64,000 bases of DNA from a virus (Duplodnaviria > Caudoviricetes): the IMG/VR virus record IMGVR_UViG_3300037762_000184, positions 1-64,000 of that record. The stretch is one strand, 5' to 3'. Position numbers and translations under genes: made by a program. Numbering within the stretch: position 1 is the first letter of the stretch; each line of letters starts with the position of its first letter. Under the pieces are notes generated by a model that was not told the DNA's origin, searched no databases, and saw nothing but the letters and a program-made list of their open reading frames with translations. Of this stretch, positions 2,846 through 46,874 are shown piece by piece.

Positions 2846-4162
2846 GTGCCGAGGCTGCCGGACACCGACCGCGCGATTCGAGGGCTCCAGCCCGCCGACC
2901 GCCCCGTTGACTATCGGGACGGCGGCTTTCACCGGGGCGGCGGATCGCTGTTCCTGCGCGTCGCCGTGACGGGTCGGAAGCGGTGGTACTTCACCTACAA
3001 CCGGCCGAGCGAGGTGGTCAAGGCTCGCGGCTCCCACTACCCGCGGGCGACCATTGCGGGCGACTTGTTCCCGACGGTCGGCCTCGCCGCCGCGCGCGCC
3101 TGGGCCGCGGGTATGCGATCGCAGGTCTTCGCCAACATCGACCCCAAGCCGGCCCGGATCGCCCAGCCGACGCTCCGCGAGCTGATTGCCGAATACGGTC
3201 ACCGCGTCGGCAAGAGGGCGAGGAGTTGGCCACAGGCGGACACCTACCTCAAGGCGCACGTCCTCGATTGGGGCAAGGACAGGCTCGGCGTGCCGTTGGG
3301 CGATATGCCGGTGGGGGCCATCACCACGCCGATGCTCGTGGACTGTCTCGACGCCGTGGTCGAAGGCGGGGCGCCGGCCAGCGCGAACCGCCTGAAGTCC
3401 ATCCTGTCGCCGATCTTCAAGTGGGCGCAGCAGCGAGGACGCGTCGAGGCCAACCCGCTTGCCGGCCTGCCACTGCCGGCGCCGAAGCGGAGCCGCGACC
3501 GCACGTTGTCGGATCGGGAGATCATCACGTTCTGGCGCCTCGCCGAGGAGGTGGCGCCACACCGCGCCTCGTGGGGCCTGCGCCTCGTGCTCGCCACCGG
3601 GCAGCGACCCGGTGAGGTTCTGTGCTTCGAGCCCTCGGAGCTGGCCTGGGAGCACGCGGTCAACTTGCCGGACGGATCGCGCTGGGAGGGGGCCGCCTGG
3701 ATCATCCCGAAGGCGAAGCACAAGACCGGACGGCGTCTCATCGCCACCGGCAAGGCCGACCAGGCGCGAGACCACGTGGTGCCGCTCTCCGGCCTCGCCG
3801 CCCAACTCTTCCGCCTCGCCCTCGACAATCCCGTCTCCGACGACTACCCGCTGCTCAAGACCCCGCCGCCGGCCGACATGAACCCGGCCTTCCACGGGCG
3901 CAACGATCTCGGAACCTTCCGCCGCGAGATGGAGCACTGGACGCCACAAGACCTTCGCCGCACCGCCTACACCGGTATGACATCCCTCGGCATCCCGCGC
4001 GATACGGTCGAGGCGGTGGTCGGGCACAGCGTCCGCGGCGTGGCCGGAGTCTATGACCGCTACTCCTACCTGAGGGAGAAGGCGCGCGCGCTCGAAGCTT
4101 GGGGGCGGCACCTGGATGCTCGGGTTAGCGGCCGAGAGGCGGCCGTGGTTCGGATCGGCTAG
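2846..4162 (+). CDS. int: tyrosine integrase with N-terminal arm-binding domain (P4/IntA-like)
   Basis: arm domain (TDRAIRGLQP...LFLRVAVTGRKRWYFTY); catalytic GQRPGE, QDLRR (H to Q), VGH, GVYDR; GTG 2846 preferred over ATG 2732. Confidence 0.92.
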   Translation: MPRLPDTDRAIRGLQPADRPVDYRDGGFHRGGGSLFLRVAVTGRKRWYFTYNRPSEVVKARGSHYPRATIAGDLFPTVGLAAARAWAAGMRSQVFANIDPKPARIAQPTLRELIAEYGHRVGKRARSWPQADTYLKAHVLDWGKDRLGVPLGDMPVGAITTPMLVDCLDAVVEGGAPASANRLKSILSPIFKWAQQRGRVEANPLAGLPLPAPKRSRDRTLSDREIITFWRLAEEVAPHRASWGLRLVLATGQRPGEVLCFEPSELAWEHAVNLPDGSRWEGAAWIIPKAKHKTGRRLIATGKADQARDHVVPLSGLAAQLFRLALDNPVSDDYPLLKTPPPADMNPAFHGRNDLGTFRREMEHWTPQDLRRTAYTGMTSLGIPRDTVEAVVGHSVRGVAGVYDRYSYLREKARALEAWGRHLDARVSGREAAVVRIG

Positions 4163-4454: not shown

Positions 4455-4946
4455 TCACCGGGAGTCCCGCGAGTTGATGTCCTTGAAGCAGGTCCGGCAG
4501 TGGTGGCGCCGGAGGGCGGACAGCAGCAGCGGCGTCTCGTTAGCCAGGACCGCCAAGTCGACCGGCTGATCGCGGATCGCCCCCCTCTGTGGGCAGCGCG
4601 GCGATCGGAGCACCGTGCGCACCGTCTTGGTGTGCGCCTCCAAGAGCCCCCAACCGTCCGGCGCTTCCTCCGGCATCACGATCCCGGGCGGGGTCAGATA
4701 CCAGCGCTCTTGACCGAGCCCGACGCCGCCGCGGTGCGGCTTGCCCTGGTCGCGGAGGAAGTCGCGGCGGTCGGCCTTCGCCTCGACGAGGATCGACCAG
4801 CGCTCGCTCACCCGCCAGCCGATCGCGTCCGGCGTCTCATACAAGGTCGAGGTCATCTCGGTCAGCACTACCGAGCAGCCGCGCGTCTTCCGCAGCCAGC
4901 GCTCGGCCCGCTCTACCAACTCGGCGTGCGTCAGTGGGTCATCCAT
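4455..4946 (-). CDS. putative PD-(D/E)xK nuclease-fold protein
   Basis: ETPDAIGW...SILVEAKADRRDFLRDQGKP...GQERWYLTP. Confidence 0.6.
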   Translation of the reverse strand: MDDPLTHAELVERAERWLRKTRGCSVVLTEMTSTLYETPDAIGWRVSERWSILVEAKADRRDFLRDQGKPHRGGVGLGQERWYLTPPGIVMPEEAPDGWGLLEAHTKTVRTVLRSPRCPQRGAIRDQPVDLAVLANETPLLLSALRRHHCRTCFKDINSRDSR

Positions 4947-37010: not shown

Positions 37011-38309
37011 GTGGCGGCTCCGGCTCTCCTGCTAGAGACTCCCCGGGCCTTCCAGCCCCTACTCGCTCCGGCGAGGTACAAGGGCGCCCACGGTGGCCGC
37101 GGAGGCGCCAAGAGCTGGTTCTTCGCCGAGCTGCTGGTAGAGCGCTGCATCCTCCAGCCGGACACCCGCGCCGTTTGCGTCCGCGAGGTTCAACGCTCAC
37201 TCGACCAATCGGTGAAGCGGCTCCTCGAGGACACCATCGCCCGGCTAGGCGTCGGCTCCCTGTTCCGCGTCCTGAATACGCATATCGAGACGCTTGCCGG
37301 TGGCCGCATCATCTTCCAGGGGATGCAGAACCACACGAGCGAGAGCATCAAGTCTCTGGAGGGCTACGATGTTGCCTGGGTAGAGGAGGCGCAGGCGCTC
37401 AGCCAGCGCTCCCTCGACCTGCTACGCCCCACGATCCGCAAGGACGGCAGCGAGCTGTGGTTCTCATGGAACCCCAAGAGCCCCGCGGACCCGATCGACT
37501 CCTTCCTCCGCGGCGAGAACCCGCCGCCTTCGTCCGTCGTGGTCGAGACGAGCTGGCGGGATAACCCGTGGCTGCCGGCGGAGCTGCGGACCGAGCTCGA
37601 ATGGGATCGCCAGCGCGATCCCGGCAAGTACGCCCACGTTTGGGGCGGCGACTACCTCCGGCGGACCGAGGCGCGGGTCTTCAATAACTGGACGGTGGAG
37701 GATTTCGACACGCCGGACGATGTGCGCTTCTACTTCGGCGGGGATTGGGGCTTCAGCGTGGACCCGGCGGTCCTTGTGCGCTGCTGGATCGACGGCCGGA
37801 AGCTCTACATCGACCGGGAGGCATACAAGATCGGGTGCGAGATCGACTACCTGCCGTTCCTCTTCGGCGGCATCGAAGATGAAGGGCTACGCCGGTTGAA
37901 CGCCGAAGCCTGGAAGGCGATGCCTCAGGCGTACCGGGGATGGCAGGGGATCGATGGCGCGCGGGTCTGGCCGCTGATCGCCGATAGCGCTAGACCGGAA
38001 ACGATCGACTACCTCAAGCGCCACGGATTCCCGAAGATCGAAGCGGCGCGGAAGGGGGCGGGGAGTGTCGAGGAGGGCGTCGAGTTTCTGCGTGCCCACG
38101 ACATCGTGATTCACTCCCGATGCATCCACACCGCTGACGAGTTCGCGACCTACAGCTACAAGACCGACCGGCTGACGGATGAGGTACTGCCGGTGCTGGA
38201 GGACCGCAAGAACCACGTCATCGACTCGGCACGCTACGCGGTGGAGAAGGTCCGCCAGGCTCCCAAGAAGGCAGCCGGCGTCTGGGGATCGCGGCGGCGC
38301 GGTAGGTAG
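37011..38309 (+). CDS. terL: terminase large subunit (PBSX/Terminase_3 type)
   Basis: GGRGGAKS Walker A, WVEEA Walker B, SWNP, GGDWGF, ADSA, NHVIDSARY. Confidence 0.97.
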   Translation: MAAPALLLETPRAFQPLLAPARYKGAHGGRGGAKSWFFAELLVERCILQPDTRAVCVREVQRSLDQSVKRLLEDTIARLGVGSLFRVLNTHIETLAGGRIIFQGMQNHTSESIKSLEGYDVAWVEEAQALSQRSLDLLRPTIRKDGSELWFSWNPKSPADPIDSFLRGENPPPSSVVVETSWRDNPWLPAELRTELEWDRQRDPGKYAHVWGGDYLRRTEARVFNNWTVEDFDTPDDVRFYFGGDWGFSVDPAVLVRCWIDGRKLYIDREAYKIGCEIDYLPFLFGGIEDEGLRRLNAEAWKAMPQAYRGWQGIDGARVWPLIADSARPETIDYLKRHGFPKIEAARKGAGSVEEGVEFLRAHDIVIHSRCIHTADEFATYSYKTDRLTDEVLPVLEDRKNHVIDSARYAVEKVRQAPKKAAGVWGSRRRGR

Positions 38310-38522
38310 GCCGTACAATCATGCGGCGGGCAAAACCTACAGAGGCGGAAGTCAGGCGGCGGGGCGTAACAGGTCGTAAGCGTAACTCTCTGAGGGGCGC
38401 AGGCTTACACCGGCAGGGTCCGGGAAGATCATTTATGTCAACCTGGGAGGCGTAAGTCCGTAAGTATCGGCAGCCTCGCCACTTGCCGCATTACTGACCC
38501 GCTTCGGGGGGCGGTGTAGGGG

Positions 38523-38861
38523 CTACATTTCGGTTCTGTCCTCGACCCACAGCGCTAGTCCCGACTCGCGATAGTCGGCCCCCGCGGACTCTCTTTGGAC
38601 GCACACGGCGACCAAGGCTTCTAGCGCGGAGGACGCCTCGCGTTTGCTCCTGCCAACGTAGACCGTTGGGATGTCCGGCAAGGTGTAATCACTCCGGCCG
38701 CAGGCGCAGGTCGTCGGGAAGTAGCCGATTTTGATCAACGGCCGACGGGTGGCGCGGGTGGCCCATATCTCCCACCAGACGGGCCGGTCGCCTCGCTTCG
38801 GCGGCGGCTCCGGCTTGACCGCTCCCGGGGGCGGGCGGGTCGGTAGCTTACGGTTAGCCAT
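38523..38861 (-). CDS. hypothetical protein
   Basis: last gene of antisense cassette. Confidence 0.55.
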   Translation of the reverse strand: MANRKLPTRPPPGAVKPEPPPKRGDRPVWWEIWATRATRRPLIKIGYFPTTCACGRSDYTLPDIPTVYVGRSKREASSALEALVAVCVQRESAGADYRESGLALWVEDRTEM

Positions 38862-39285
38862 CGCCGCGCCCCTCCCACTGAGTACAGCCGAAATCATAGC
38901 GAGTGGTCAGGCCGGCGCCCTCAACGGCCATGCCGTCTGCCTTACCGTACGCGCCAGACGCTACTCCGGGGTCGCCTTCCGAGGCCCTGCGCTGTTCGTC
39001 GCGGGCCAAGACGCACTCGCCATGGTCTAGCGGGCTCACGGCAAGGCCGCCCGGACCCCATGACTGTTGCCACCACCGACACATGTCGCAGCGCGGCAGC
39101 GGCATCACCGCCAGTGGTTCGCTAGCGAGCGTGAGAGCGTTGCGGGCTACCTCGTGCTGGCGACCGAAGCCGCTGGCGACGACCACGTACCACGCCTCTC
39201 TCCCGTAAGGGACGCCGACCACGATGCCGATCTCCCCGCTCGCCTTGTGACGCACGCGATCCTCGACCGCTAATTGTTCGCTCAC
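38854..39285 (-). CDS. hypothetical protein with Cys motif
   Basis: RCDMCRWW...GECV...FGCTQWE. Confidence 0.6.
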   Translation of the reverse strand: MSEQLAVEDRVRHKASGEIGIVVGVPYGREAWYVVVASGFGRQHEVARNALTLASEPLAVMPLPRCDMCRWWQQSWGPGGLAVSPLDHGECVLARDEQRRASEGDPGVASGAYGKADGMAVEGAGLTTRYDFGCTQWEGRGDG

Positions 39286-39659
39286 TGCGCGCCTCCGTTG
39301 TCCGCCAAGCAGTCGTAGAAGATCCGGGTGTGCGTCATCTGCTGCCCGCTCCAGTCCTCGGCCTTCATGAACTGCTCCTCGCTCACCACCTCCCACTCGG
39401 CGCCGCCGTGGTTCGCGGTGCACAGCTTGGCGATCCGGTTGTAAGCCTTCTGCGGGCCGGCCAGCTCTGAGTAGACGACCGCGCCGTCTACGCGCGGGTC
39501 CACGTTGGCCGGGGCGTTGCGCATGTTGGCTGGGGACGGCTCGGCGGTGACGCAGGCAAGCGCCAGCACCAGCAGAGCCGGGAGCAGCAGGGCTGCGCAC
39601 CCGTAGCGGACCTCGACATTCGGGGGTGCGGTGGGGAGGGGTGGCTTGGTCGGCGTCAC
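39282..39659 (-). CDS. putative lipoprotein
   Basis: hydrophobic signal with lipobox ALAC. Confidence 0.6.
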   Translation of the reverse strand: MTPTKPPLPTAPPNVEVRYGCAALLLPALLVLALACVTAEPSPANMRNAPANVDPRVDGAVVYSELAGPQKAYNRIAKLCTANHGGAEWEVVSEEQFMKAEDWSGQQMTHTRIFYDCLADNGGAQ

Positions 39660-39922
39660 GATGCCTCCTCTTCGGTAGTCCATCGTTCGGCGAACCCTGC
39701 CGGCATGCCATCCGGCCAGCCGTACTCCGCCCAGCAGAACGCGGCCAAGCTGCGGATGGCGTCCGCGCTGGGCGTTTGGTGGTCGATCCGGGCGAGTTCC
39801 GAGATCTTGGCGTTGAGGCAGGCGTCAGCAGCGGTCCTGTTGCCTACCGTGCCGGTTGGGGCGCCCGCGCCATCGCAGCCGAGCAGCAGGGCGGGGAGTA
39901 GGGCGAAGAGGGGGAGCTTCAT
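39656..39922 (-). CDS. putative lipoprotein
   Basis: MKLPLFALLPALLLG|C lipobox. Confidence 0.7.
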   Translation of the reverse strand: MKLPLFALLPALLLGCDGAGAPTGTVGNRTAADACLNAKISELARIDHQTPSADAIRSLAAFCWAEYGWPDGMPAGFAERWTTEEEAS

Positions 39923-40167
39923 GCGCGACCTCCTGAGTCGGTAGCGATTCGCGCCTCCAGCGCGGCGACCCGGTCCTCCAGCGCCCAGAAGTCCCGCCAC
40001 ATCGGAGCGTGCGAGGCCATCAACCGCTCGTCTTGACGGGGGACGAACTCGTGCTCGGGTTCGGTGTAGCCGCTGCCGCCTTCGGGGGCTTGCTTGTAGT
40101 GCGCCGCCGCGACGTGCCCGCAGACGGCGCAATGGTTGTAGTAGCCGGGGAGGTCGGCGAGCGTCAC
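39919..40167 (-). CDS. small Cys/His protein with coiled-coil tail
   Basis: HCAVCGH...H...HEF; GGAGG SD. Confidence 0.6.
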   Translation of the reverse strand: MTLADLPGYYNHCAVCGHVAAAHYKQAPEGGSGYTEPEHEFVPRQDERLMASHAPMWRDFWALEDRVAALEARIATDSGGRA

Positions 40168-40535
40168 CGCTTCACCTCCACCACGAGCCCCTTGGGGCAA
40201 ATCGACAAGCGAAACACTGTGTAGCCAAAGGTGAGCCCGTCCTCTTCGAACTCCACACTTCCCTCGATAGTCACATCCTTGACTTCGTGGTACCCCGGAG
40301 CAGACAACGCCTCAGAGGGCTCCAGAACGCGGCCGAATTGCGCTCTCGGTAATGGAGCCACCCAGTGCTCGCGAAAGCCGTTGACTTGCACCGGAGTGAC
40401 GAGGACGCGATCCTCTAGCGCTTCGCGCTCCCATTGCAGTGTCTCTTCGTCGATCGGGGTGGTAATGGGAATGCCGCCCCGGTAGACGTAGCCAGGGGCC
40501 GGCTCGGCGGCGGTTGCGGTTGGGGTGCTAGGCAT
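40164..40535 (-). CDS. hypothetical protein
   Basis: CAGGAG SD. Confidence 0.6.
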   Translation of the reverse strand: MPSTPTATAAEPAPGYVYRGGIPITTPIDEETLQWEREALEDRVLVTPVQVNGFREHWVAPLPRAQFGRVLEPSEALSAPGYHEVKDVTIEGSVEFEEDGLTFGYTVFRLSICPKGLVVEVKR

Positions 40536-40695
40536 GGGGTGTCTCCTGGTGGGTTGTGGTGGCGACTAGCCTCCGCGCCGCGATCTCTACGGCTGCGGAG
40601 CGTGAGAGTCCGTTCGCCTTTGCGTAGGCGTCGAGGATGCGCAGGGCCTCCTCGGTCAGCGTCAAGCTGGTTCGCCGCTTCGTGTCCTTGCTCAA
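40528..40695 (-). CDS. CopG/RHH regulator directly downstream of the pentamer array
   Basis: TTG with AAAGGAGG SD; RTSLTLTEEALRILDAYAKANGLSRSAAVEIA. Confidence 0.85.
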   Translation of the reverse strand: MSKDTKRRTSLTLTEEALRILDAYAKANGLSRSAAVEIAARRLVATTTHQETPHA

Positions 40696-40725
40696 GTCGT
40701 CCCTCCTTTCAGGGTGGTTCATAGG

Positions 40726-41386
40726 ATGCCTGCCTAGCGACGTCTGTCCCCGCCTCGCCCTTCCGCTCCGCGCCTCGCCATTCCTGTCTAGCCTTGCCCG
40801 GGCTTGCCTGTCCAGGCCGCGCCACGCCTGCCGTGATTGCCACGCCCGGCCTAGGCTAGCCCGGCGATGCTCAGCCCAGCGACGCCTGCCTTGCCTTTCC
40901 AGTGCTCGCCCCGCCGTTCCGCGCCTTGCCTGCCGCGCCGTACCGGCTGTGCCTTGCACCGCCTAGCCGGGCCGATCCCTGCCGCCCCTCACCCCGCCTA
41001 ACCGGTCCGCGCCTGCCGCGCATCTGCCTTGCCTCGCCTTGCCGCGGCAGGCCTGTACTAGCCCATTCTCGCCCTGCCTCGCCTGTCACGCCAACCCTTG
41101 CCTCGCCGCACCATGCCCCGCCCCTCCCTGCCTCGTCTAGCCTGCCTTGGCCGGCCAGTCCTCGCCTGTTCGCGCCGCGCCAAGCCGGGCGACCCCTTGC
41201 CTGCCGCGCCTTGCCTGTCCGAGCCTGTCGTGCCGAGCCCGGCCAAGCCACTCTGTGCCTAGCCCGTCCTAGTCATGCCTGCCGTGCCTATCCGGGCCGC
41301 GCCCCGCCTAGCCGGGCCTTGCCTGCGATGCCGCACCGTTCCCTACCGAGCCAGGCGGCGCCGGGGCTAGCCGGTCCCCGCCTGCC
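40726..41386 (-). ncRNA. array of GGC-NN pentamer repeats, putative guide-RNA array
   Basis: 5-nt periodic GG(C/A/T)-NN on minus strand, broken by 4-nt GGC-A steps into about 12 units; starts 10 nt after the upstream stop codon. Confidence 0.75.
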
Positions 41387-41395
41387 GCGTCGACT

Positions 41396-41896
41396 TTAGT
41401 GAATCGCCTTCACTGCCGAAGCCGCCGCGTCCATCGCTCGCATCGCGAGAGCGATCCTCGCCATGCGCTCGCTGTCCAGCGTACCGGCGGCGGCTGTCTC
41501 CAGATCCGCCAGCGCCCTGGCTGCTGCGTTCATCTTCGCGTTCAGCTCGCCCACCGCCGCCGTGAACATATCCGGCGACCGGATCACCTGCTCGACGGGG
41601 TGGTAGGCGTCCTGGACGTGGACGTAGACCTTCGTCGCCAGCGGTTCCTCGCCGTCGCGATCCTCGACGACTTCGATGCTGCGGATCAGCTTGCGGGCCT
41701 GATGCTCCCGCCACTTCTCCCCGGCCACGCCGTTGTTCCACTCGAAAGCCGGATGCAGGGCGGCCGTCTTCGGTCGCGCCTCCTCGACGACCTCAGCCGG
41801 CCGCAGCCCTTCGCGCTCCGCGTGGATGCGCTCCAGCTCTACGCCTACCGCCTCGGCGTCCACTCCGGCGGGACACCTCTTCAACCGAAACGTCAT
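41396..41896 (-). CDS. conserved-type partner protein of the Cas7-like gene
   Basis: GLRPAEVVEEAR...LHPAFEWNN..AGEKWREHQARKLIRSIEV; ATGA overlap with Cas7-like gene. Confidence 0.8.
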   Translation of the reverse strand: MTFRLKRCPAGVDAEAVGVELERIHAEREGLRPAEVVEEARPKTAALHPAFEWNNGVAGEKWREHQARKLIRSIEVVEDRDGEEPLATKVYVHVQDAYHPVEQVIRSPDMFTAAVGELNAKMNAAARALADLETAAAGTLDSERMARIALAMRAMDAAASAVKAIH

Positions 41897-42558
41897 GCTG
41901 CCGCCTCCTCTTCTTCGTTGACGATCTTGAACGTGCCGAACCCCATGCCGTTGCTCGACTTGGAGAACGGGCGACCTTCGCCGATGCCGACCTGTTCACC
42001 CGCACGAGCCACGAGGTTCGCCACGTCCTCGATAGTGAACTGGTCGGCGTCATACCGGACCACGATGTTGAGTACCCACTTCCGCCACATGGGGCGGACC
42101 CGAATGTCGGCCACGCCGGTCGCGTTGCGGGTCGCCATTTCGGTACGCTCCGGCTCCCCGGCGTCGAGCTTGACGAGCGGCGCGCCGTCCACCGCGTCGA
42201 AGCCGTCCGCCTCGACGAAGACCGACATCTTCGCCCGCGTCATTTGGAAGCCGACCATCCGGCACACGTCGATACAGGCGTTCCGCAGCGCCGCCGCCGG
42301 GACGCCGATCCACCCGTCCGTCGAGCGGTGGAGTGCGCCCTCGAAATCGGCGTCGAAGTCGCGCGCCTCTCGCTTCGACCCCTTCTTGGCGGTACTGCCC
42401 GCCAGCATCTTCGTCTTCATCGCCTGCATCGCCTTGGCGCTGAACCTCGCCTGCATGAACGGCGCGGTGCCTTCGATGCGGAGCGAAAGACGGTGAAACT
42501 TCGGTGGGGTGATGCCGACGGCCGCCGGGGTGCTGGACTTCGTTCCTGCTGCTGCCAT
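41893..42558 (-). CDS. Cas7/RAMP-like protein
   Basis: RLSLRIEGTAPF first strand, GVPAAALRNAC RAMP motif, C-terminal Gly-rich loop GEQVGIGEGRPFSKSSNGMGFGTF. Confidence 0.75.
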   Translation of the reverse strand: MAAAGTKSSTPAAVGITPPKFHRLSLRIEGTAPFMQARFSAKAMQAMKTKMLAGSTAKKGSKREARDFDADFEGALHRSTDGWIGVPAAALRNACIDVCRMVGFQMTRAKMSVFVEADGFDAVDGAPLVKLDAGEPERTEMATRNATGVADIRVRPMWRKWVLNIVVRYDADQFTIEDVANLVARAGEQVGIGEGRPFSKSSNGMGFGTFKIVNEEEEAAA

Positions 42559-42611
42559 GAGAAATGCCTCCCTCGTTCACGTTCACGCACGGAATGCACG
42601 CGACGGGGCGC

Positions 42612-42660
42612 ACTATACGCGAATTCGGGCAGCATGTCCATGGTCGGGTCCAACCATGGA
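42612..42660 (-). promoter_or_regulatory. promoter of Cas7-like operon with overlapping palindrome
   Basis: TGGACA(42635-40)-17-TATAGT(42612-17); inverted repeat TCCATGGT-N8-ACCATGGA at 42637-42660. Confidence 0.65.
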
Positions 42661-42671
42661 AGCCGTGACCC

Positions 42672-43181
42672 TCACCACCTCTCCAATCCGAGGGTGATCG
42701 TTTCCGTCACCTGTTCATAGGTCAGGCCGAGCGCAACCGCTGTCGTGACCAGACGATCTCGACCCGGCAGCCTCAAGCCGTACAGAACCGCCCACACGTC
42801 ATCAGCGCTCATGTGGTCGAGACGCGACGCGATCTCGGCGCTTGTCGTGCGCGACGCGCGGGCTTGCTGCCGAACGAGTCGGCGAAGAGAGCGGCGCCCA
42901 ATTCGCTCAGGGTCGTGCCGCGGCCTGGCCCTGTTGTAGCGCGGGTGTTCGTTCGTGATGGCTCGCTGCTCGGCGATAAGCGCTGCCGGCCGGCTCGACA
43001 GCCAATCGATGGCGATTGAGGCGACATCGGGCCACCAGAACTTCTCGTGCGAGTGAAGCGCGAACCGCGCGGAGGGATCGCACGAGATGCCGACATAGAG
43101 AAGGTTCCCGGCGGCGTCTACGGCGCGGTAGAGCGCCGTCGGACGCAACTCTTGGAGCGCTTCGCTGGCCCCGGCAATCAC
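42672..43181 (-). CDS. GIY-YIG nuclease fused to C-terminal HTH
   Basis: ALYRAVD..G.LLYVGIS..P.ARF..H...AEQRAI..EHPRYN, then XRE-like helices. Confidence 0.8.
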   Translation of the reverse strand: MIAGASEALQELRPTALYRAVDAAGNLLYVGISCDPSARFALHSHEKFWWPDVASIAIDWLSSRPAALIAEQRAITNEHPRYNRARPRHDPERIGRRSLRRLVRQQARASRTTSAEIASRLDHMSADDVWAVLYGLRLPGRDRLVTTAVALGLTYEQVTETITLGLERW

Positions 43182-43438
43182 CAAGGCGCCAGCCCCAGAC
43201 CTTCCGGCGAGATGACAGTGCCGGCGATCTCTTCGTATCCGATCCCCAGCTCGACCGCCACCGCCCGCAACTTCTCTGGATCGGGCGGTCGTCGGCACCT
43301 AACTTCAATGTGCCGAATATCTTCGGAGTCCACGACGACTCCGGCCGCGGTGCAGTGTGACGCCAGTTCGTCACGACTCATCCTCGCCCGGAGGCGGCGG
43401 CCTTCAATCAGAGTGCGTAGTCGGTAGAAATGGTCCAT
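43178..43438 (-). CDS. XRE-like HTH protein
   Basis: RRLRARMSRDELA...IRHIE...PDPEKLRAVAVELG. Confidence 0.7.
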   Translation of the reverse strand: MDHFYRLRTLIEGRRLRARMSRDELASHCTAAGVVVDSEDIRHIEVRCRRPPDPEKLRAVAVELGIGYEEIAGTVISPEGLGLAPW

Positions 43439-43514
43439 TGCGGTTCCAATAGTACCGCATCGGTGCTTGTGCGCGCAACAAGCACCGGCCACCCTCATTT
43501 CGGGACTAGTGCGC

Positions 43515-46500
43515 GTGCCGAAAACCACAACCAACGGAAGCGGCAACGGCGCGGCCGAACCTCGCCTGCCGACCAGCCGTCTGCGCGCCATGGGCTCAGC
43601 GCTGGTGGCGCGCGCACGGCTTGCCTCACGGGCCGGGCTGAGCTTCGGCGGTAAGCGCGACTTCTACACTGCGCTCGGTTACGAGCGCGACCTCACAATT
43701 CAGCACTACCGCGAGCTATACGAACGCGGCGGTATCGCTCGAAAACTGGTCGACCTCATCCCGACCCTGGCATGGACAGCCGGCGGCGCCGACATCGTGG
43801 AAGACCCGGACCCCGGCGAGCTCACGGAATTCGAGACGCAGGCTGCCGAGCTGTTCGCGCGCGTCGACGCCTGGCCTCGCTTCCGCCGCGCGGACATCCT
43901 TTCTCGTCTCGGCCGCTACTCCGTTCTGCTGCTCGGTACGTCAGACCTTGAAACGCAGGCGGACTTCGCGCAGCCGCTGTCGAAGCTCTCCGGTCCGGAC
44001 GACATCCTCTACCTCACGCCGAGAGCCGAGAGCCACGCGAAGATCTGCTCTCTCGTCAAGAAGCCTTCCGACCCGCGCTTCGGCCTGCCTGAGTTCTACA
44101 ACGTCGATCTGGGGCACGACGAAGACAGCAAGGCGCTCCTCTCCGGAGGGACGCAGAAAACCCACTGGACGCGCGTGGTCCACATTGCCGGCGGGCTGCT
44201 CGATAACGACGTGTACGGCGAGCCGGCCCTGCGTGCGTTGTGGAACCTCCTCTTCAACCTCGAAAAGCTGCTCGGCGGCGGCTCAGAGGCGACGTGGAAG
44301 CGGATGAACCCGCTGACGCTCTTCGACCTGAGCCCCGATGCCGTACTCGGCGACACGCCCGCGGAGATCGAGGAAGCCGAAGAGGCGTTGGAGGACGAGA
44401 TCGAAGAGCTGGTGCATGGGTACCGTTCCTATGCCCAGGCCACTGGTCTCGAAGTAAAGAGCATCAGTCAGGCGGTGCCCAACTTCGGGCCGAACGCGGC
44501 GGCAATCGAACGCCATATCGCGGGCACCGGAAACATCCCCCATCGCGTCCTCTTCGGAACGGAGCGCGGCGAGCTAGCCAGCGCGCAGGACCGCTCGAAT
44601 CTCAGCGACAACGTCCAGGGCTACCGGGACAGCCACTGCAACGTGGTAGTCCGCCAGTTCCTCGCCCGCTTGATTGAATACGGCGCTCTTCCCGGGCCGG
44701 TCAAGCATGAGCTGGTATGGCCTGAGATGGAAGAGATGAGCGAGCCCGAAAAGGCCGACGTGGTCAGCAAGATGGCGACCGCGAACAAGGCCAACGTCGA
44801 CGCAGGCGGCGGCCTGATCGTCGCCGCGAACGAGTTGCGGAACGACGTACTCGGCAAAGGGCCTATCGAAGAGATCGAAAACTCCGGGGTGGCCGAGGGA
44901 GGCGGCGACGGTGGTCCCTCCTCTGCCGTCGCCGCCTCCCTCCGGGCTGCGAAGCTCAGGCTGTGCCGGAAGCGCGGGCTGGACTTCGGGCCTGACTCTC
45001 CGGCCGCGCTTGCCGGTAACGAGGAGCCAGAGTGGCGCGCAGTCCACCGTGCTGCCGACTTGCACATGGAGTCTCTGGCGCGGGCTGTCGTCGGCGCCTG
45101 GGATGACGGAGCGGCGGAGATCGACGACGGCGCCCTTGAGGACGCGCTCGCCGCCGGCAACTTCGGTGCCGCCGAAACCGTCGCGCTCGCCGGTGTCACT
45201 GCCGCCGAGCAACGTCTCGCCGAGATCCTGCCTGACCGACTACTCGCCACCCTGGTAGATGGTGGCCTCGCCGCTCTGCGGTCCGCTCGGTCGCGCGGTT
45301 CTTTCTTCCGCCGCGCCGCGGGATTCTCGGCGCAGTTCGATGCGACCAACCCGCGCGCCGTCACGTGGGCGGAGGAGCGTTCCTCGCTGCTGATCACGGA
45401 GATCGGCGTCGAAACGGTGTCGGCGATGCAGGCGCTCATCGCGCAGGGCCTCGCCGAGGGCATCCCGCCCCGGAAGCTGGCGCAGCAGATTCGGGCTGCG
45501 GTAGGGCTGCGCTCGGATCAGGTGTCGGCCGTCCAGAACCTCATCACGGAGTTGCAGGCGGCGAAGCCCGGCTCGCTGGTGACGCGCTTCCCTCCGCGGG
45601 AGGGCCTGCGTGGCTCTGCCGGCTTCAAGGCTCGCATTCCGAAGAGCGGCATCACGCAGGAGTGGTTGGACCGGCAGGCGGCGCGGTACTCGACGATGCA
45701 GCGGAACTACCGAGCCAGAACAATCGCTCGCAGTGAAACAATGAGAAGTGCGAACGAGGGTGTCCGCGAGCTTTGGAGGCAGGGCCAAGAGTCCGGTCAG
45801 CTCCCAGCGGATATCAAGCGGGTCTGGCTTCACAACACTGATCGCCACGCAGACCGGGCCGGGGTGGCGGTAGGCATTGACGAGCCTTGGCCGTGGGGAA
45901 CCGAGCCGGGCGAAGAGGTGAACTGCTTCCTACCTGGAACGGATGTCAGCGGCGCGTTCGTGGCTGGCCTAAAAACCCTCTATGCGGGGCCGGCTATCGA
46001 AGTAGCCACCCGGCAGGGTCACCGGCTGCGCCTCACGCCCAATCACCCCGTACTGACTTCGCAAGGTTGGTTGCCGGCGAAGAGTCTCCGCAAGGGCCAG
46101 CAGCTTGTCTGCTGCCTTCCGGAGGTTGATCTTCTGTCGAGCGGAGCCCTGCTCGGGGGCGAACGTCCCGCCAGCGAGGCGTTCTCTCGGCCGAGTCCAT
46201 CCGTGCCGCGAGCCGTTGGGCGACGTGGCGCAGACGACGATCAGGGACCAACCCTGATTGAGGACGTATTCGAAGCGCTTGCGTCTCAGGGCGCCTTGGC
46301 GCGCAAAGGCTGTACTGGTCTCGATCTCCACGGCGATGCGAAGTGGTCGGATGGCGAGGTCCAGATTGTAGGGGCCGAGAGGGAACTGGTGCGTTACCTT
46401 GATTCCGCCGCGTCTCAGGAGAGCAGCGAGCTCATGTTCGAGAGGGCTGGTGTGATTCGCGCGCTCGCAGTTGGTGCGAGCCCTGGCAATCCTGGCTTCC

Positions 46501-46874
46501 AGAGGGTCGACGCGCCCCCGTCTGGCTTTCCACGCGGCGCTGAGTTGGCGGCGGACAGCCTCCCCGCCCTGCGCCTTGATGGACCTCCACTTCAGCCTCT
46601 GCGCGTCGGCCCTGCCGCGTATCTGGACACCGTTAAGCCGAAAGCGCCTCTCGATACACCTGCGGCTGAGTCCCGTTTCGTCGGCGAGCTGCTTCATGGA
46701 GGCGCCGGCCTTGTAGCGTTCGATGAGGTTGTGCAGGTTCGGGATTTCTCGTTCCGCGGACACGTCTTCGATCTCCAGTCTGTGACGGGTTGGCTTTCCG
46801 CTGGCAACATTATCACAAGCAACTGTGGCTGCGCACAGGGCATCGAAGATCCCGCGCGGGCGGAGGCGGCGTGA
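43515..46874 (+). CDS. portal protein (DUF1073-type) fused to Mu gpF-like head-morphogenesis domain containing an intein
   Basis: YERGGIARKLVD.IP..AW, RFGLPEFY, IPHRVLFG; RARTIARSETMRSANEG...KRVW...PGEEVN|CGC; start uncertain. Confidence 0.88.
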   Translation: MPKTTTNGSGNGAAEPRLPTSRLRAMGSALVARARLASRAGLSFGGKRDFYTALGYERDLTIQHYRELYERGGIARKLVDLIPTLAWTAGGADIVEDPDPGELTEFETQAAELFARVDAWPRFRRADILSRLGRYSVLLLGTSDLETQADFAQPLSKLSGPDDILYLTPRAESHAKICSLVKKPSDPRFGLPEFYNVDLGHDEDSKALLSGGTQKTHWTRVVHIAGGLLDNDVYGEPALRALWNLLFNLEKLLGGGSEATWKRMNPLTLFDLSPDAVLGDTPAEIEEAEEALEDEIEELVHGYRSYAQATGLEVKSISQAVPNFGPNAAAIERHIAGTGNIPHRVLFGTERGELASAQDRSNLSDNVQGYRDSHCNVVVRQFLARLIEYGALPGPVKHELVWPEMEEMSEPEKADVVSKMATANKANVDAGGGLIVAANELRNDVLGKGPIEEIENSGVAEGGGDGGPSSAVAASLRAAKLRLCRKRGLDFGPDSPAALAGNEEPEWRAVHRAADLHMESLARAVVGAWDDGAAEIDDGALEDALAAGNFGAAETVALAGVTAAEQRLAEILPDRLLATLVDGGLAALRSARSRGSFFRRAAGFSAQFDATNPRAVTWAEERSSLLITEIGVETVSAMQALIAQGLAEGIPPRKLAQQIRAAVGLRSDQVSAVQNLITELQAAKPGSLVTRFPPREGLRGSAGFKARIPKSGITQEWLDRQAARYSTMQRNYRARTIARSETMRSANEGVRELWRQGQESGQLPADIKRVWLHNTDRHADRAGVAVGIDEPWPWGTEPGEEVNCFLPGTDVSGAFVAGLKTLYAGPAIEVATRQGHRLRLTPNHPVLTSQGWLPAKSLRKGQQLVCCLPEVDLLSSGALLGGERPASEAFSRPSPSVPRAVGRRGADDDQGPTLIEDVFEALASQGALARKGCTGLDLHGDAKWSDGEVQIVGAERELVRYLDSAASQESSELMFERAGVIRALAVGASPGNPGFQRVDAPPSGFPRGAELAADSLPALRLDGPPLQPLRVGPAAYLDTVKPKAPLDTPAAESRFVGELLHGGAGLVAFDEVVQVRDFSFRGHVFDLQSVTGWLSAGNIITSNCGCAQGIEDPARAEAA
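45924..46823 (+). mobile_element. 300-aa intein in head-morphogenesis domain
   Basis: block A CFLPGT, block B LRLTPNHPVLT..GW, block F RGHVFDLQS, block G IITSN followed by Cys; splicing restores PGEEVNCGC. Confidence 0.92.
45969..46763 (-). CDS. HTH + DUF559/Vsr-like endonuclease encoded antisense within the intein
   Basis: HTH GASMKQLADETGLSRRCIERRF; SPLEHELA...QFPLGPYNLDLAI..RIAVEIE...GW; GGAG SD 9 nt upstream of GTG. Confidence 0.85.
   Translation of the reverse strand: MSAEREIPNLHNLIERYKAGASMKQLADETGLSRRCIERRFRLNGVQIRGRADAQRLKWRSIKAQGGEAVRRQLSAAWKARRGRVDPLEARIARARTNCERANHTSPLEHELAALLRRGGIKVTHQFPLGPYNLDLAIRPLRIAVEIETSTAFARQGALRRKRFEYVLNQGWSLIVVCATSPNGSRHGWTRPRERLAGGTFAPEQGSARQKINLRKAADKLLALAETLRRQPTLRSQYGVIGREAQPVTLPGGYFDSRPRIEGF

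What the first reader, a model, noticed from the sequence alone, without database searches (positions are those of the whole stretch)
40726..42558. Cas7/RAMP-like protein + partner + non-CRISPR pentamer array: candidate phage RNA-guided system
Seen: one minus-strand operon reads promoter (42612-60), 221-aa protein with RAMP hallmarks (first strand RIEGTAP, GVPAAALR, C-terminal Gly-rich loop), coupled 166-aa partner, then 661 nt of GGC-NN repeats, then an RHH gene. There is no cas1/cas2, no CRISPR repeat-spacer array and no helicase. Established: Cas7 polymerises along guide RNA with a fixed nucleotide period. Inference: the constant GGC triplets are the protein-bound scaffold and the variable NN pairs encode a discontinuous target, so the phage could silence rival phages or host genes. 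I recall a recently named phage family with this architecture (VIPR, alternating GGY/NN RNAs), but I cannot verify that here, so check novelty first.
Basis: partly seen in the sequence, partly recalled or inferred. Interest (0 to 1): 0.95.

Follow-up and report, generated by a model that had tools for sequence, protein, structure and literature searches.

The report
Phage VIPR guide-RNA system, staggered array
This complete 84-kb uncultivated phage carries a VIPR system, the CRISPR-related RNA-guided DNA silencer described in 2026 preprints. It has a small Cas7-like protein, a helper gene and about 13 guides written in five-base GGY-NN units. It is a solid new example of a known kind, and one guide matches a gene of another mobile element.

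Summary
On the minus strand lie a promoter-like site, a 221-aa gene, a 166-aa gene overlapping it by 4 nt, and a 656-nt tract with 5-nt periodicity. That tract is the only such one in the 83,652-bp phage genome.

Of 68 viral loci with a homologue, 62 carry same-strand GGY-NN runs beside the gene. Fifty-six also carry the 166-aa partner.

The tract is a 'staggered' vrRNA array: about 13 units of 8-13 pentamers, each closed by a 4-nt GGCA step. This is the architecture of fig. S18 of the VIPR preprint.

One guide (v1) matches 22 of 22 informative bases, under the published 1-nt-skip rule, in a small-terminase-like gene. That gene sits on a primase-bearing mobile-element contig, and every skipped base falls on a codon wobble position. 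The other guides have no convincing target.

The system is therefore not new. This scan has already reported staggered VIPR arrays in at least 24 other genomes. Verdict: new member of a known kind.

The parts
42612..42640 (-). Promoter-like site (TGGACA, 17-nt spacer, TATAGT), about 50 nt upstream of the vipr start codon
   Evidence: 10 of 12 consensus matches. It is the only site in 40100-43400, against 0.1 expected from shuffles. This is a consensus match only; function was not shown.
41893..42558 (-). vipr: a 221-aa RAMP (Cas7-like) protein, the presumed vrRNA-binding filament subunit
41396..41896 (-). vap-like accessory gene, 166 aa, translationally coupled to vipr by an ATGA overlap
   Evidence: Homologues sit beside vipr in 56 of 68 viral loci. 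It matches phrog_15946 at E 3e-16. It has no Pfam family and no PDB sequence relative. AF2 model: pLDDT 93. The fold is an N-terminal alpha/beta domain plus a C-terminal helical hairpin, with only weak likeness to winged-helix regulators. It is not detectably related to SUSP1 Vap1.
40731..41386 (-). Staggered vrRNA array: about 13 guide units of (GGY-NN) x 8-13, each closed by a 4-nt GGCA-type step. It starts 10 nt after the vap stop codon.
   Evidence: Unit coordinates (pentamer part plus the 4-nt step): v1 41382-41324, v2 41323-41280, v3 41279-41226, v4 41225-41202, v5 41201-41143, v6 41142-41084, v7 41083-41014, v8 41013-40945, v9 40944-40931, v10 40930-40887, v11 40886-40838 (followed by a 9-nt remnant, 40837-40829), v12 40828-40785, v13 40784-40731.
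41328..41382 (-). Pentamer part of guide v1 (11 pentamers): the only guide with a convincing predicted target
   Evidence: Under the 1-nt-skip rule it matches 22 of 22 informative bases at L086:2187-2218. The same site is L087:4393-4424, codons 112-122 of a 217-aa gene. A homologue 65% identical in protein keeps 20 of 22, while 5 of the 10 skipped bases differ.
40528..40695 (-). Ribbon-helix-helix gene directly downstream. It is a neighbour, and probably not part of the system.
   Evidence: PF01402, E 1e-7. No homologue occurs in any of the 68 related loci. No terminator-like site separates it from the array, so it may be co-transcribed.

Best explanation
This is a VIPR (Viral Interference Programmable Repeat) system of the staggered-array kind, carried by a complete 84-kb phage genome.

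Inferred by homology with the characterised SUSP1 system: the operon is transcribed from the promoter upstream of vipr. Vipr protomers bind one pentamer each, sequester the GGY triplet and expose the NN pair. The resulting filament reads double-stranded DNA two bases out of every three and blocks transcription of the bound gene.

My own inference for this array: the 4-nt GGCA step breaks the 5-nt register, so each unit of 8-13 pentamers forms its own filament and guide. No tail or ribozyme is present.

Shown here by sequence only: guide v1 is complementary to the first two positions of 11 consecutive codons of a small-terminase-like gene. That gene lies on a contig of another phage or satellite-like element that encodes a primase-helicase. 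The likely role is therefore silencing of a competing mobile element. The 166-aa partner is the accessory (vap) gene of this clade and is possibly DNA-binding.
For: Protein. The 221-aa protein has a RAMP/Cas7 fold. Its only significant PDB sequence relative is SUSP1 Vipr. The thumb Arg (R155, aligned with SUSP1 R138) is kept in at least 90% of the 73 aligned sequences. The G-loop Arg (R196, aligned with SUSP1 R179) is invariant.

Array. It is unique in the genome and on the gene strand. Of 68 homologous viral loci, 62 have same-strand runs beside vipr, and only 2 have a single opposite-strand run.

Grammar shared with relatives. Of 280 guide-like units, 270 end in a 4-nt step, which is GGCA in 263 of the 304 steps in the eight commonest forms. 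Unit length peaks at 8-12 pentamers. This fits the published 'staggered arrays' with 1-nt overlap.

Module and turnover. Only vipr, vap and the array are conserved between loci; the flanking genes are not. Guides turn over much faster than the gene: loci whose vipr DNA is 98.7% identical share 0 of 12 guides.

Target and self-avoidance. v1 matches 22 of 22 bases with all skips on wobble positions. A diverged homologue keeps 20 of 22. No self-target exceeds the shuffled null, and the target gene has no homologue in this phage.

Detector control. The same run detector recovers the published layout (runs both upstream and downstream of the vipr-vap pair) in a SUSP1-type phage.
Against: There is no expression or binding data.

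Only 64-70% of the pentamers are canonical GGY. That is the low end of the range in relatives (0.68-1.0, median 0.80), so some guides may be decaying.

Similarity to SUSP1 Vipr is detectable only over the C-terminal ~58 residues. The G-loop has an 8-residue insert and lacks the stacking Trp at the aligned position, so details of RNA reading may differ.

The skip rule has been shown experimentally only for type II systems.

Only one of 12 guides tested has a convincing target. With an unknown database size, I estimate the chance expectation of one exact 22-position hit at roughly 0.1-0.2 before context is counted.

The Vap fold assignment is weak.
Confidence: 0.92

Rival explanations
1. A decaying VIPR remnant. 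The proteins may still be made, but the array has drifted (a third of the units are non-GGY) and no longer yields working guides. The v1 match would then be a relic or chance.
For: Canonical GGY fraction is 0.64-0.70, at the bottom of the range in relatives. Several 4-nt steps are degenerate (CGCA, GACA, AGCC). Eleven of the 12 guides tested have no target.
Against: Both ORFs are intact with conserved key residues. The 5-nt register and the 5n+4 grammar are kept through the degenerate units. The v1 guide has 4 non-canonical units of 11, yet matches its target at all 22 informative bases, including those in the degenerate units. Many relatives have similar degeneracy, and the VIPR authors note frequent internal degeneracy.
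Confidence: 0.05
2. A VIPR-family system that works differently from type II. For example, it may use another skip rule, target RNA, or recruit a nuclease through its unrelated Vap, so that silencing by simple DNA binding is not its mode of action.
For: The Vipr is only distantly related to SUSP1's and has a G-loop insert. The Vap is unrelated to Vap1. The arrays lack the tail and pseudoknot of type II. The preprint reports seven types, some with nucleases.
Against: The one convincing target obeys the 1-nt-skip rule exactly, with skips on wobble positions. The Vap model shows no nuclease or helicase fold, and no Pfam family matches. The guide is antisense to the mRNA, so RNA targeting is not excluded by strand. 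The preprint states that all seven types use the same code.
Confidence: 0.03
3. The tract is not an RNA-guide array. It would instead be a Gly/Ala/Arg-rich coding region or a simple G-rich satellite that happens to lie beside a RAMP-like gene.
For: Long ORFs run through the tract on both strands (for example 40871-41251 on the minus strand and 40902-41399 on the plus strand).
Against: A 5-nt period cannot hold a reading frame, and stop-poor GGC-rich DNA reads open by default. The tract accompanies vipr on the same strand in 62 of 68 loci across GC contents of 0.44-0.68. The NN content turns over while GGY is held.
Confidence: 0.005

Closest known systems
VIPR systems with staggered vrRNA arrays (bioRxiv 10.64898/2026.04.26.720920, fig. 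S18 legend)
   Same: A Vipr RAMP gene, an accessory gene and GGY-NN pentamer arrays. Consecutive guides abut with a 1-nt overlap, seen here as GGCA followed by GGC. The system is phage-encoded, with no cas genes and no CRISPR array.
   Different: Nothing defining differs. I could not assign one of the seven published types, because the figures and supplementary tables are not held. This array is more degenerate than most relatives: 64-70% canonical units.
Type II VIPR of Escherichia phage SUSP1 and other Felixounaviruses (Vipr, Vap1, four vrRNAs; PDB 36pp)
   Same: Same protein family (profile E 2.6e-6; hhalign 95%). The thumb Arg and G-loop Arg are conserved. It is a two-gene operon with pentamer guides of 9-16 repeats. 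The predicted target is a gene of another mobile element, with skips on wobble bases.
   Different: Similarity is detectable only over the C-terminal ~58 residues, and the G-loop has an 8-residue insert. The Vap is unrelated to Vap1. SUSP1 guides are separate ~100-nt RNAs with a 3' pseudoknot tail. Here there are about 13 tail-less guides set head to tail and separated by a 4-nt step.
CRISPR type III Csm3/Cmr4 (Cas7) backbone subunits
   Different: No Cas1, Cas2, Cas10, Cas6 or repeat-spacer array. The period is 5 nt with three bases sequestered, rather than 6 nt with one base flipped. Guides are genome-encoded tandem pentamers, not acquired spacers. It is not a member of this family.
TIGR-Tas (tandem interspaced guide RNA) systems
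   Same: A non-CRISPR array encoding short programmable guides in phage or mobile contexts.
   Different: TIGR arrays have an ~18-nt period (as summarised in bioRxiv 10.64898/2026.10.21.760802). From general knowledge, not tested here, their effectors are Nop-domain Tas proteins and not RAMPs. There is no relation here.

Membership tests
VIPR | A Vipr protein: a minimal single-RRM RAMP homologous to the published Viprs | tested here: met
VIPR | Thumb and glycine-rich loop with the RNA-contacting residues | tested here: met
   The model has a beta-hairpin at 137-158 and a Gly-rich loop at 187-209. R155 aligns with SUSP1 R138 and R196 with R179. E194 aligns with D177 (conservative change), and G195 replaces W178. 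Residue roles are inferred from the alignment only.
VIPR | An adjacent array of at least 4 tandem YNNGG / GGY-NN pentamers on the gene strand | tested here: met
   About 116 pentamer tiles in about 13 units at 41386-40731. It is the only such tract in the genome. The same holds in 62 of 68 homologous loci.
VIPR | Fixed GGY positions with hypervariable NN positions | tested here: met
   In the window, positions 1-3 are G 0.91, G 0.86 and C/T 0.78, while positions 4-5 are near-even. In relatives they are G 0.94, G 0.93 and C/T 0.92. Guides differ between loci with near-identical vipr.
VIPR | An accessory vap gene in a minimal locus; no cas genes or CRISPR array; viral context | tested here: met
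   The coupled 166-aa gene is conserved beside vipr in 56 of 68 loci. There is no Cas1 and no CRISPR-like repeat. The genome is a complete IMG/VR virus record with terminal repeats. Which of vap1-6 this gene is could not be determined.
VIPR | Targets follow the 1-nt-skip (NNx) code, typically in coding DNA with the skip on the wobble base | tested here: inconclusive
   One guide (v1) fits exactly: 22 of 22 bases across codons 112-122, with every skip on a wobble base. The other guides tested gave no hit, or chance-level hits. The tools allowed exact-match scans only.
VIPR | vrRNAs are transcribed, processed and bound by Vipr; the RNP binds dsDNA and represses transcription | not testable with these tools
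VIPR type II (SUSP1 clade) | Discrete vrRNAs with a conserved 3' tail/pseudoknot, and a Vap1 accessory protein | tested here: not met
   Units abut through a 4-nt step with no tail. There is no Rfam match. The Vap is unrelated to Vap1 (hhalign probability 0.1%).
CRISPR-Cas class 1 | A repeat-spacer array plus cas1/cas2 and a multi-RAMP effector | tested here: not met
   No Cas1 match (the control rings in 7 of 14 reference genomes). No CRISPR-like repeats. The locus has a single RAMP gene.

The most novel reading that the evidence does not exclude
In the staggered clade, guide maturation and length would be set by the RNA itself. The 4-nt GGCA step shifts the 5-nt register by one, so a Vipr filament cannot run on into the next unit. 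Guides would then be defined, and perhaps trimmed by host RNases, without any tail, ribozyme or dedicated nuclease.

This clade's Vipr has an extended G-loop. It may also tolerate non-GGY triplets (GGA, GCC, CGC) while still reading their NN pairs, as the perfect v1 match through four such units suggests. The held VIPR papers mention the staggered layout but, in the text I could read, give no mechanism for it.
Probability: 0.3. Interest if true: 0.5.

Novelty: new member of a known kind. Interest (0 to 1): 0.3.

Why it matters
The locus adds a well-documented, complete-genome example of the tail-less staggered form of VIPR, with about 13 guides. The held papers describe that form only in a figure legend.

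It also offers one concrete, testable natural target: a conserved IAVLDRAGYGP-coding site in a small-terminase-like gene of a primase-bearing mobile element. That fits the published picture of VIPR as a weapon between mobile elements.

Two further points could guide experiments. The guide matches perfectly through non-canonical units. The 5n+4 grammar holds across 60 related loci. Both bear on how these arrays are read and cut. Neither changes the fact that the system itself is already known.

Tried and rejected
Target scans of public collections (exact match only):
- v8 full, v7 units 2-11, v6 units 1-10 and v11 full in viral contigs: 0 hits.
- v8 units 1-11 in metagenome contigs: 0 hits.
- One clean 12-unit guide of relative L010 in viral contigs, as a positive control for the clade: 0 hits.
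- v2 (16 informative bases): 4 viral hits on contigs of GC 0.34-0.51. Two lie in frame in unrelated long ORFs. I judged these chance-level.
- v5 seed (18 bases): 3 hits (2 unique), none wobble-aligned, extending to 18-19 of 22. Judged chance-level.

Local target tests:
- Self-targeting: no guide exceeds shuffled-guide nulls on the 83.6-kb genome. The best is v6, 18 of 22 at 43719-43750, equal to the null maximum.
- Cross-targeting of 235 guides among all held loci: one 18-of-20 hit, about what chance gives.
- No other guide of the window's array exceeds its shuffled null on the v1 target contig L087. No guide from related loci reaches 85% of informative bases there.

Other:
- The search for related loci with the 73-sequence alignment failed for lack of conserved columns; the single protein worked.
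- Rfam found no ribozyme or other family in the locus.
- The published type (I-VII) could not be assigned because figures and supplementary tables are not held.

Full report
**What is there.**
On the minus strand of the window there is first a sigma-70-like site, TGGACA-17-TATAGT, at 42640-42612. It is the only such site in 3.3 kb, against 0.1 expected. Next come a 221-aa ORF (42558-41893) and a 166-aa ORF (41896-41396) that overlaps it by ATGA. Ten nucleotides after the second stop codon a 656-nt tract with 5-nt periodicity begins (41386-40731). It is followed by a ribbon-helix-helix gene (40695-40528; PF01402, E 1e-7).

The window is the first 64 kb of an 83,652-bp IMG/VR virus record with direct terminal repeats, which CheckV rates as complete. 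The locus sits in a ~5-kb minus-strand island between the large terminase gene (37011-38309, plus strand) and the portal gene (43467-46874, plus strand).

**Is the repeat real?**
All eight runs of five or more in-phase GGY triplets in the whole genome lie in this tract, on the minus strand. Order-1 Markov simulations of the genome give about 0.7 such runs.

A dynamic-programming tiling covers the tract almost completely with pentamers plus occasional 4-nt steps. It yields about 13 units of 8-13 pentamers (two are short), each closed by GGCA or a degenerate form of it. Each step moves the register by -1.

Position frequencies over 116 tiles are G 0.91, G 0.86 and C/T 0.78, followed by two near-even positions. 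About a third of the units are non-canonical, mostly GGA, GCC, CGC or GAC.

**The protein.**
The 221-aa protein has no Pfam family but matches phrog_4652. It has thousands of homologues, nearly all unnamed: 3016 in the 5.8-billion-protein set and 2395 representative clusters.

By sequence, the only significant PDB match is 'SUSP1 Vipr protein' (36pp_D). The single-sequence E-value is 0.0025 and the profile E-value is 2.6e-6. I fetched a SUSP1-type locus from Escherichia phage Alf5, using the peptide printed. hhalign of my profile against its Vipr gives 95.3% probability, E 2.4e-8, over the C-terminal 58 columns.

In that alignment the thumb arginine (SUSP1 R138, needed for silencing) corresponds to R155. 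The G-loop arginine R179 corresponds to the invariant R196, and D177 to E194. W178 is replaced by an invariant Gly, and this clade has an 8-residue G-loop insert.

**Related loci.**
Sixty-eight IMG/VR loci encode a homologue 40-68% identical to the window's protein. Sixty-two have same-strand GGY runs beside the gene, and only two have a single run on the opposite strand.

Clean examples (L002, L010, L027) show exactly the grammar seen here: (GGY-NN)n, then GGCA, then the next unit. Over all loci, 270 of 280 guide-like units end in a 4-nt step. That step is GGCA in 263 of the 304 steps in the eight commonest forms, and unit length peaks at 8-12 pentamers.

The canonical-unit fraction ranges from 0.68 to 1.0 (median 0.80). 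The window, at 0.64-0.70, is at the low end.

A homologue of the 166-aa partner lies beside vipr in 56 of 68 loci. The flanking genes of the window (GIY-YIG-like, RHH and the small ORFs) have no counterpart there. The conserved module is therefore vipr, vap and the array.

Guides turn over much faster than the gene. Loci with 98.7% identical vipr DNA share 0 of 12 guides, and loci with identical vipr share 4 of 8.

**What it is.**
VIPR is described in bioRxiv 10.64898/2026.04.26.720920 (discovery, the code, phage-against-phage use, seven types) and 10.64898/2026.04.26.720927 (cryo-EM). Later preprints, 10.64898/2026.10.15.759431 and 10.64898/2026.10.21.760802, build on it.

The defining features are a minimal RAMP (Vipr), an accessory vap gene, and vrRNAs of 9-16 GGY-NN repeats. 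One protomer binds each repeat and sequesters the GGY. The NN pairs read double-stranded DNA with one target base skipped per pair, which represses transcription.

The legend of fig. S18 describes 'staggered vrRNA arrays' in which successive vrRNAs overlap by 1 nt. This is the GGCA-GGC junction seen here.

The locus differs from the type II reference (SUSP1). It has no 3' tail or pseudoknot, its Vap is unrelated to Vap1 (hhalign 0.1%), and its Vipr is only distantly similar. I could not assign one of the seven types because figures and supplements are not held. Rfam finds no hammerhead or other family in the locus. There is no Cas1 and no CRISPR-like repeat in the genome.

**The partner.**
The 166-aa protein (phrog_15946) models confidently (pLDDT 93). 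It has an N-terminal helix/strand domain and a long C-terminal helical hairpin.

**Targets.**
I converted 12 guides to NNx patterns. None matches the phage's own genome better than shuffled guides do. This agrees with the authors' finding of no self-targets.

Only exact-match scans of the public collections were possible. Most returned nothing or chance-level hits.

The exception is guide v1 (41382-41328). It matches 22 of 22 informative bases on a JGI metagenome contig (L086:2187-2218). The same gene lies on a 9.6-kb ENA contig (L087), next to a Prim-Pol/VapE primase-helicase and many small same-strand ORFs.

The site is codons 112-122 (IAVLDRAGYGP) of a 217-aa gene. The guide pairs with the first and second positions of eleven consecutive codons, and every skipped base is a wobble base. 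The protein has weak PHROG matches to small terminase families (phrog_2538, E 5e-4, covering the site).

A homologue 65% identical in protein, from other samples, keeps 20 of the 22 informative bases, while 5 of the 10 skipped bases differ. The window phage has no homologue of this gene.

I cannot compute an exact chance probability because the collection size is not given. For about 10^12 bases, an exact 22-position pattern is expected about 0.1 times. The wobble phase and the mobile-element context make chance much less likely. I rate the target as probable (about 0.75), not proven.

The match also runs through four non-GGY units. This argues that such units still carry information.

**Mechanism, and what is inference.**
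Shown here: the family membership, the array grammar, the linkage of array and gene, guide turnover, and one code-compliant target.

Inferred from the characterised relatives: transcription of the array with the operon, one Vipr per pentamer, binding of dsDNA and silencing.

My own inference: the -1 register step ends each filament and so delimits the guides.

**Novelty.**
This is a new member of a known kind. This scan's own records already hold follow-ups calling staggered VIPR arrays in at least 24 other genomes. One of them also reports a guide aimed at a packaging-region gene. I did not test those notes; they did not change my reading.

Noticed in passing
L093:1969-2314 (Mycobacterium phage Donkeykong, NC_051648.1): A staggered GGY-NN array lies directly upstream of the Vipr homologue gp49, which is 33% identical to the window's protein. 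The array coincides with the annotated 'hypothetical protein' gene 48 (locus 1950-2336). That CDS is probably a mis-called guide array. About 25 Mycobacterium and 5 Gordonia phage records carry the homologue.
   Followed up: partly
L069:3004-4592 (Cyanophage Cy-LDV1, BK059895.1): A named cyanophage carries the closest cultured-host homologue (63.5% identity, annotated as hypothetical). Pentamer arrays fill both intergenic gaps around the next gene: 3653-3834 and 4460-4592.
   Followed up: partly
window 38500-43300: The VIPR operon lies in a ~5-kb minus-strand island inserted between the plus-strand large terminase and portal genes. The gene just upstream of the promoter (42672-43298, minus strand) matches phage endonuclease PHROGs (phrog_3312, E 2e-18), with a faint GIY-YIG signal. 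It may be a homing-type element that brought the cassette in.
   Followed up: no
window 43467-46874: The 1135-aa portal and head-morphogenesis fusion has a weak intein-splicing match (PF14890, residues 837-1104). A 264-aa ORF with an HTH-like N-terminus lies antisense inside it (45969-46763, minus strand). Another note of this scan (e1-5891515) flags the same feature.
   Followed up: no
window 41382-40945 (guides v1, v2, v8): The dinucleotide triple CC-TA-GG, or CC-TA alone, recurs in three guides and twice within v8. These guides may be paralogues made by duplication, or they may aim at variants of one motif. No shared target was found.
   Followed up: partly
L087:389-9596 (ENA ERZ27268065 k141_1021704): The contig carrying the v1 target encodes a 704-aa Prim-Pol/VapE primase-helicase and about 20 small same-strand ORFs. 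No large terminase follows the small-terminase-like gene. This would fit a satellite-like element, but the contig is only a 9.6-kb fragment.
   Followed up: partly
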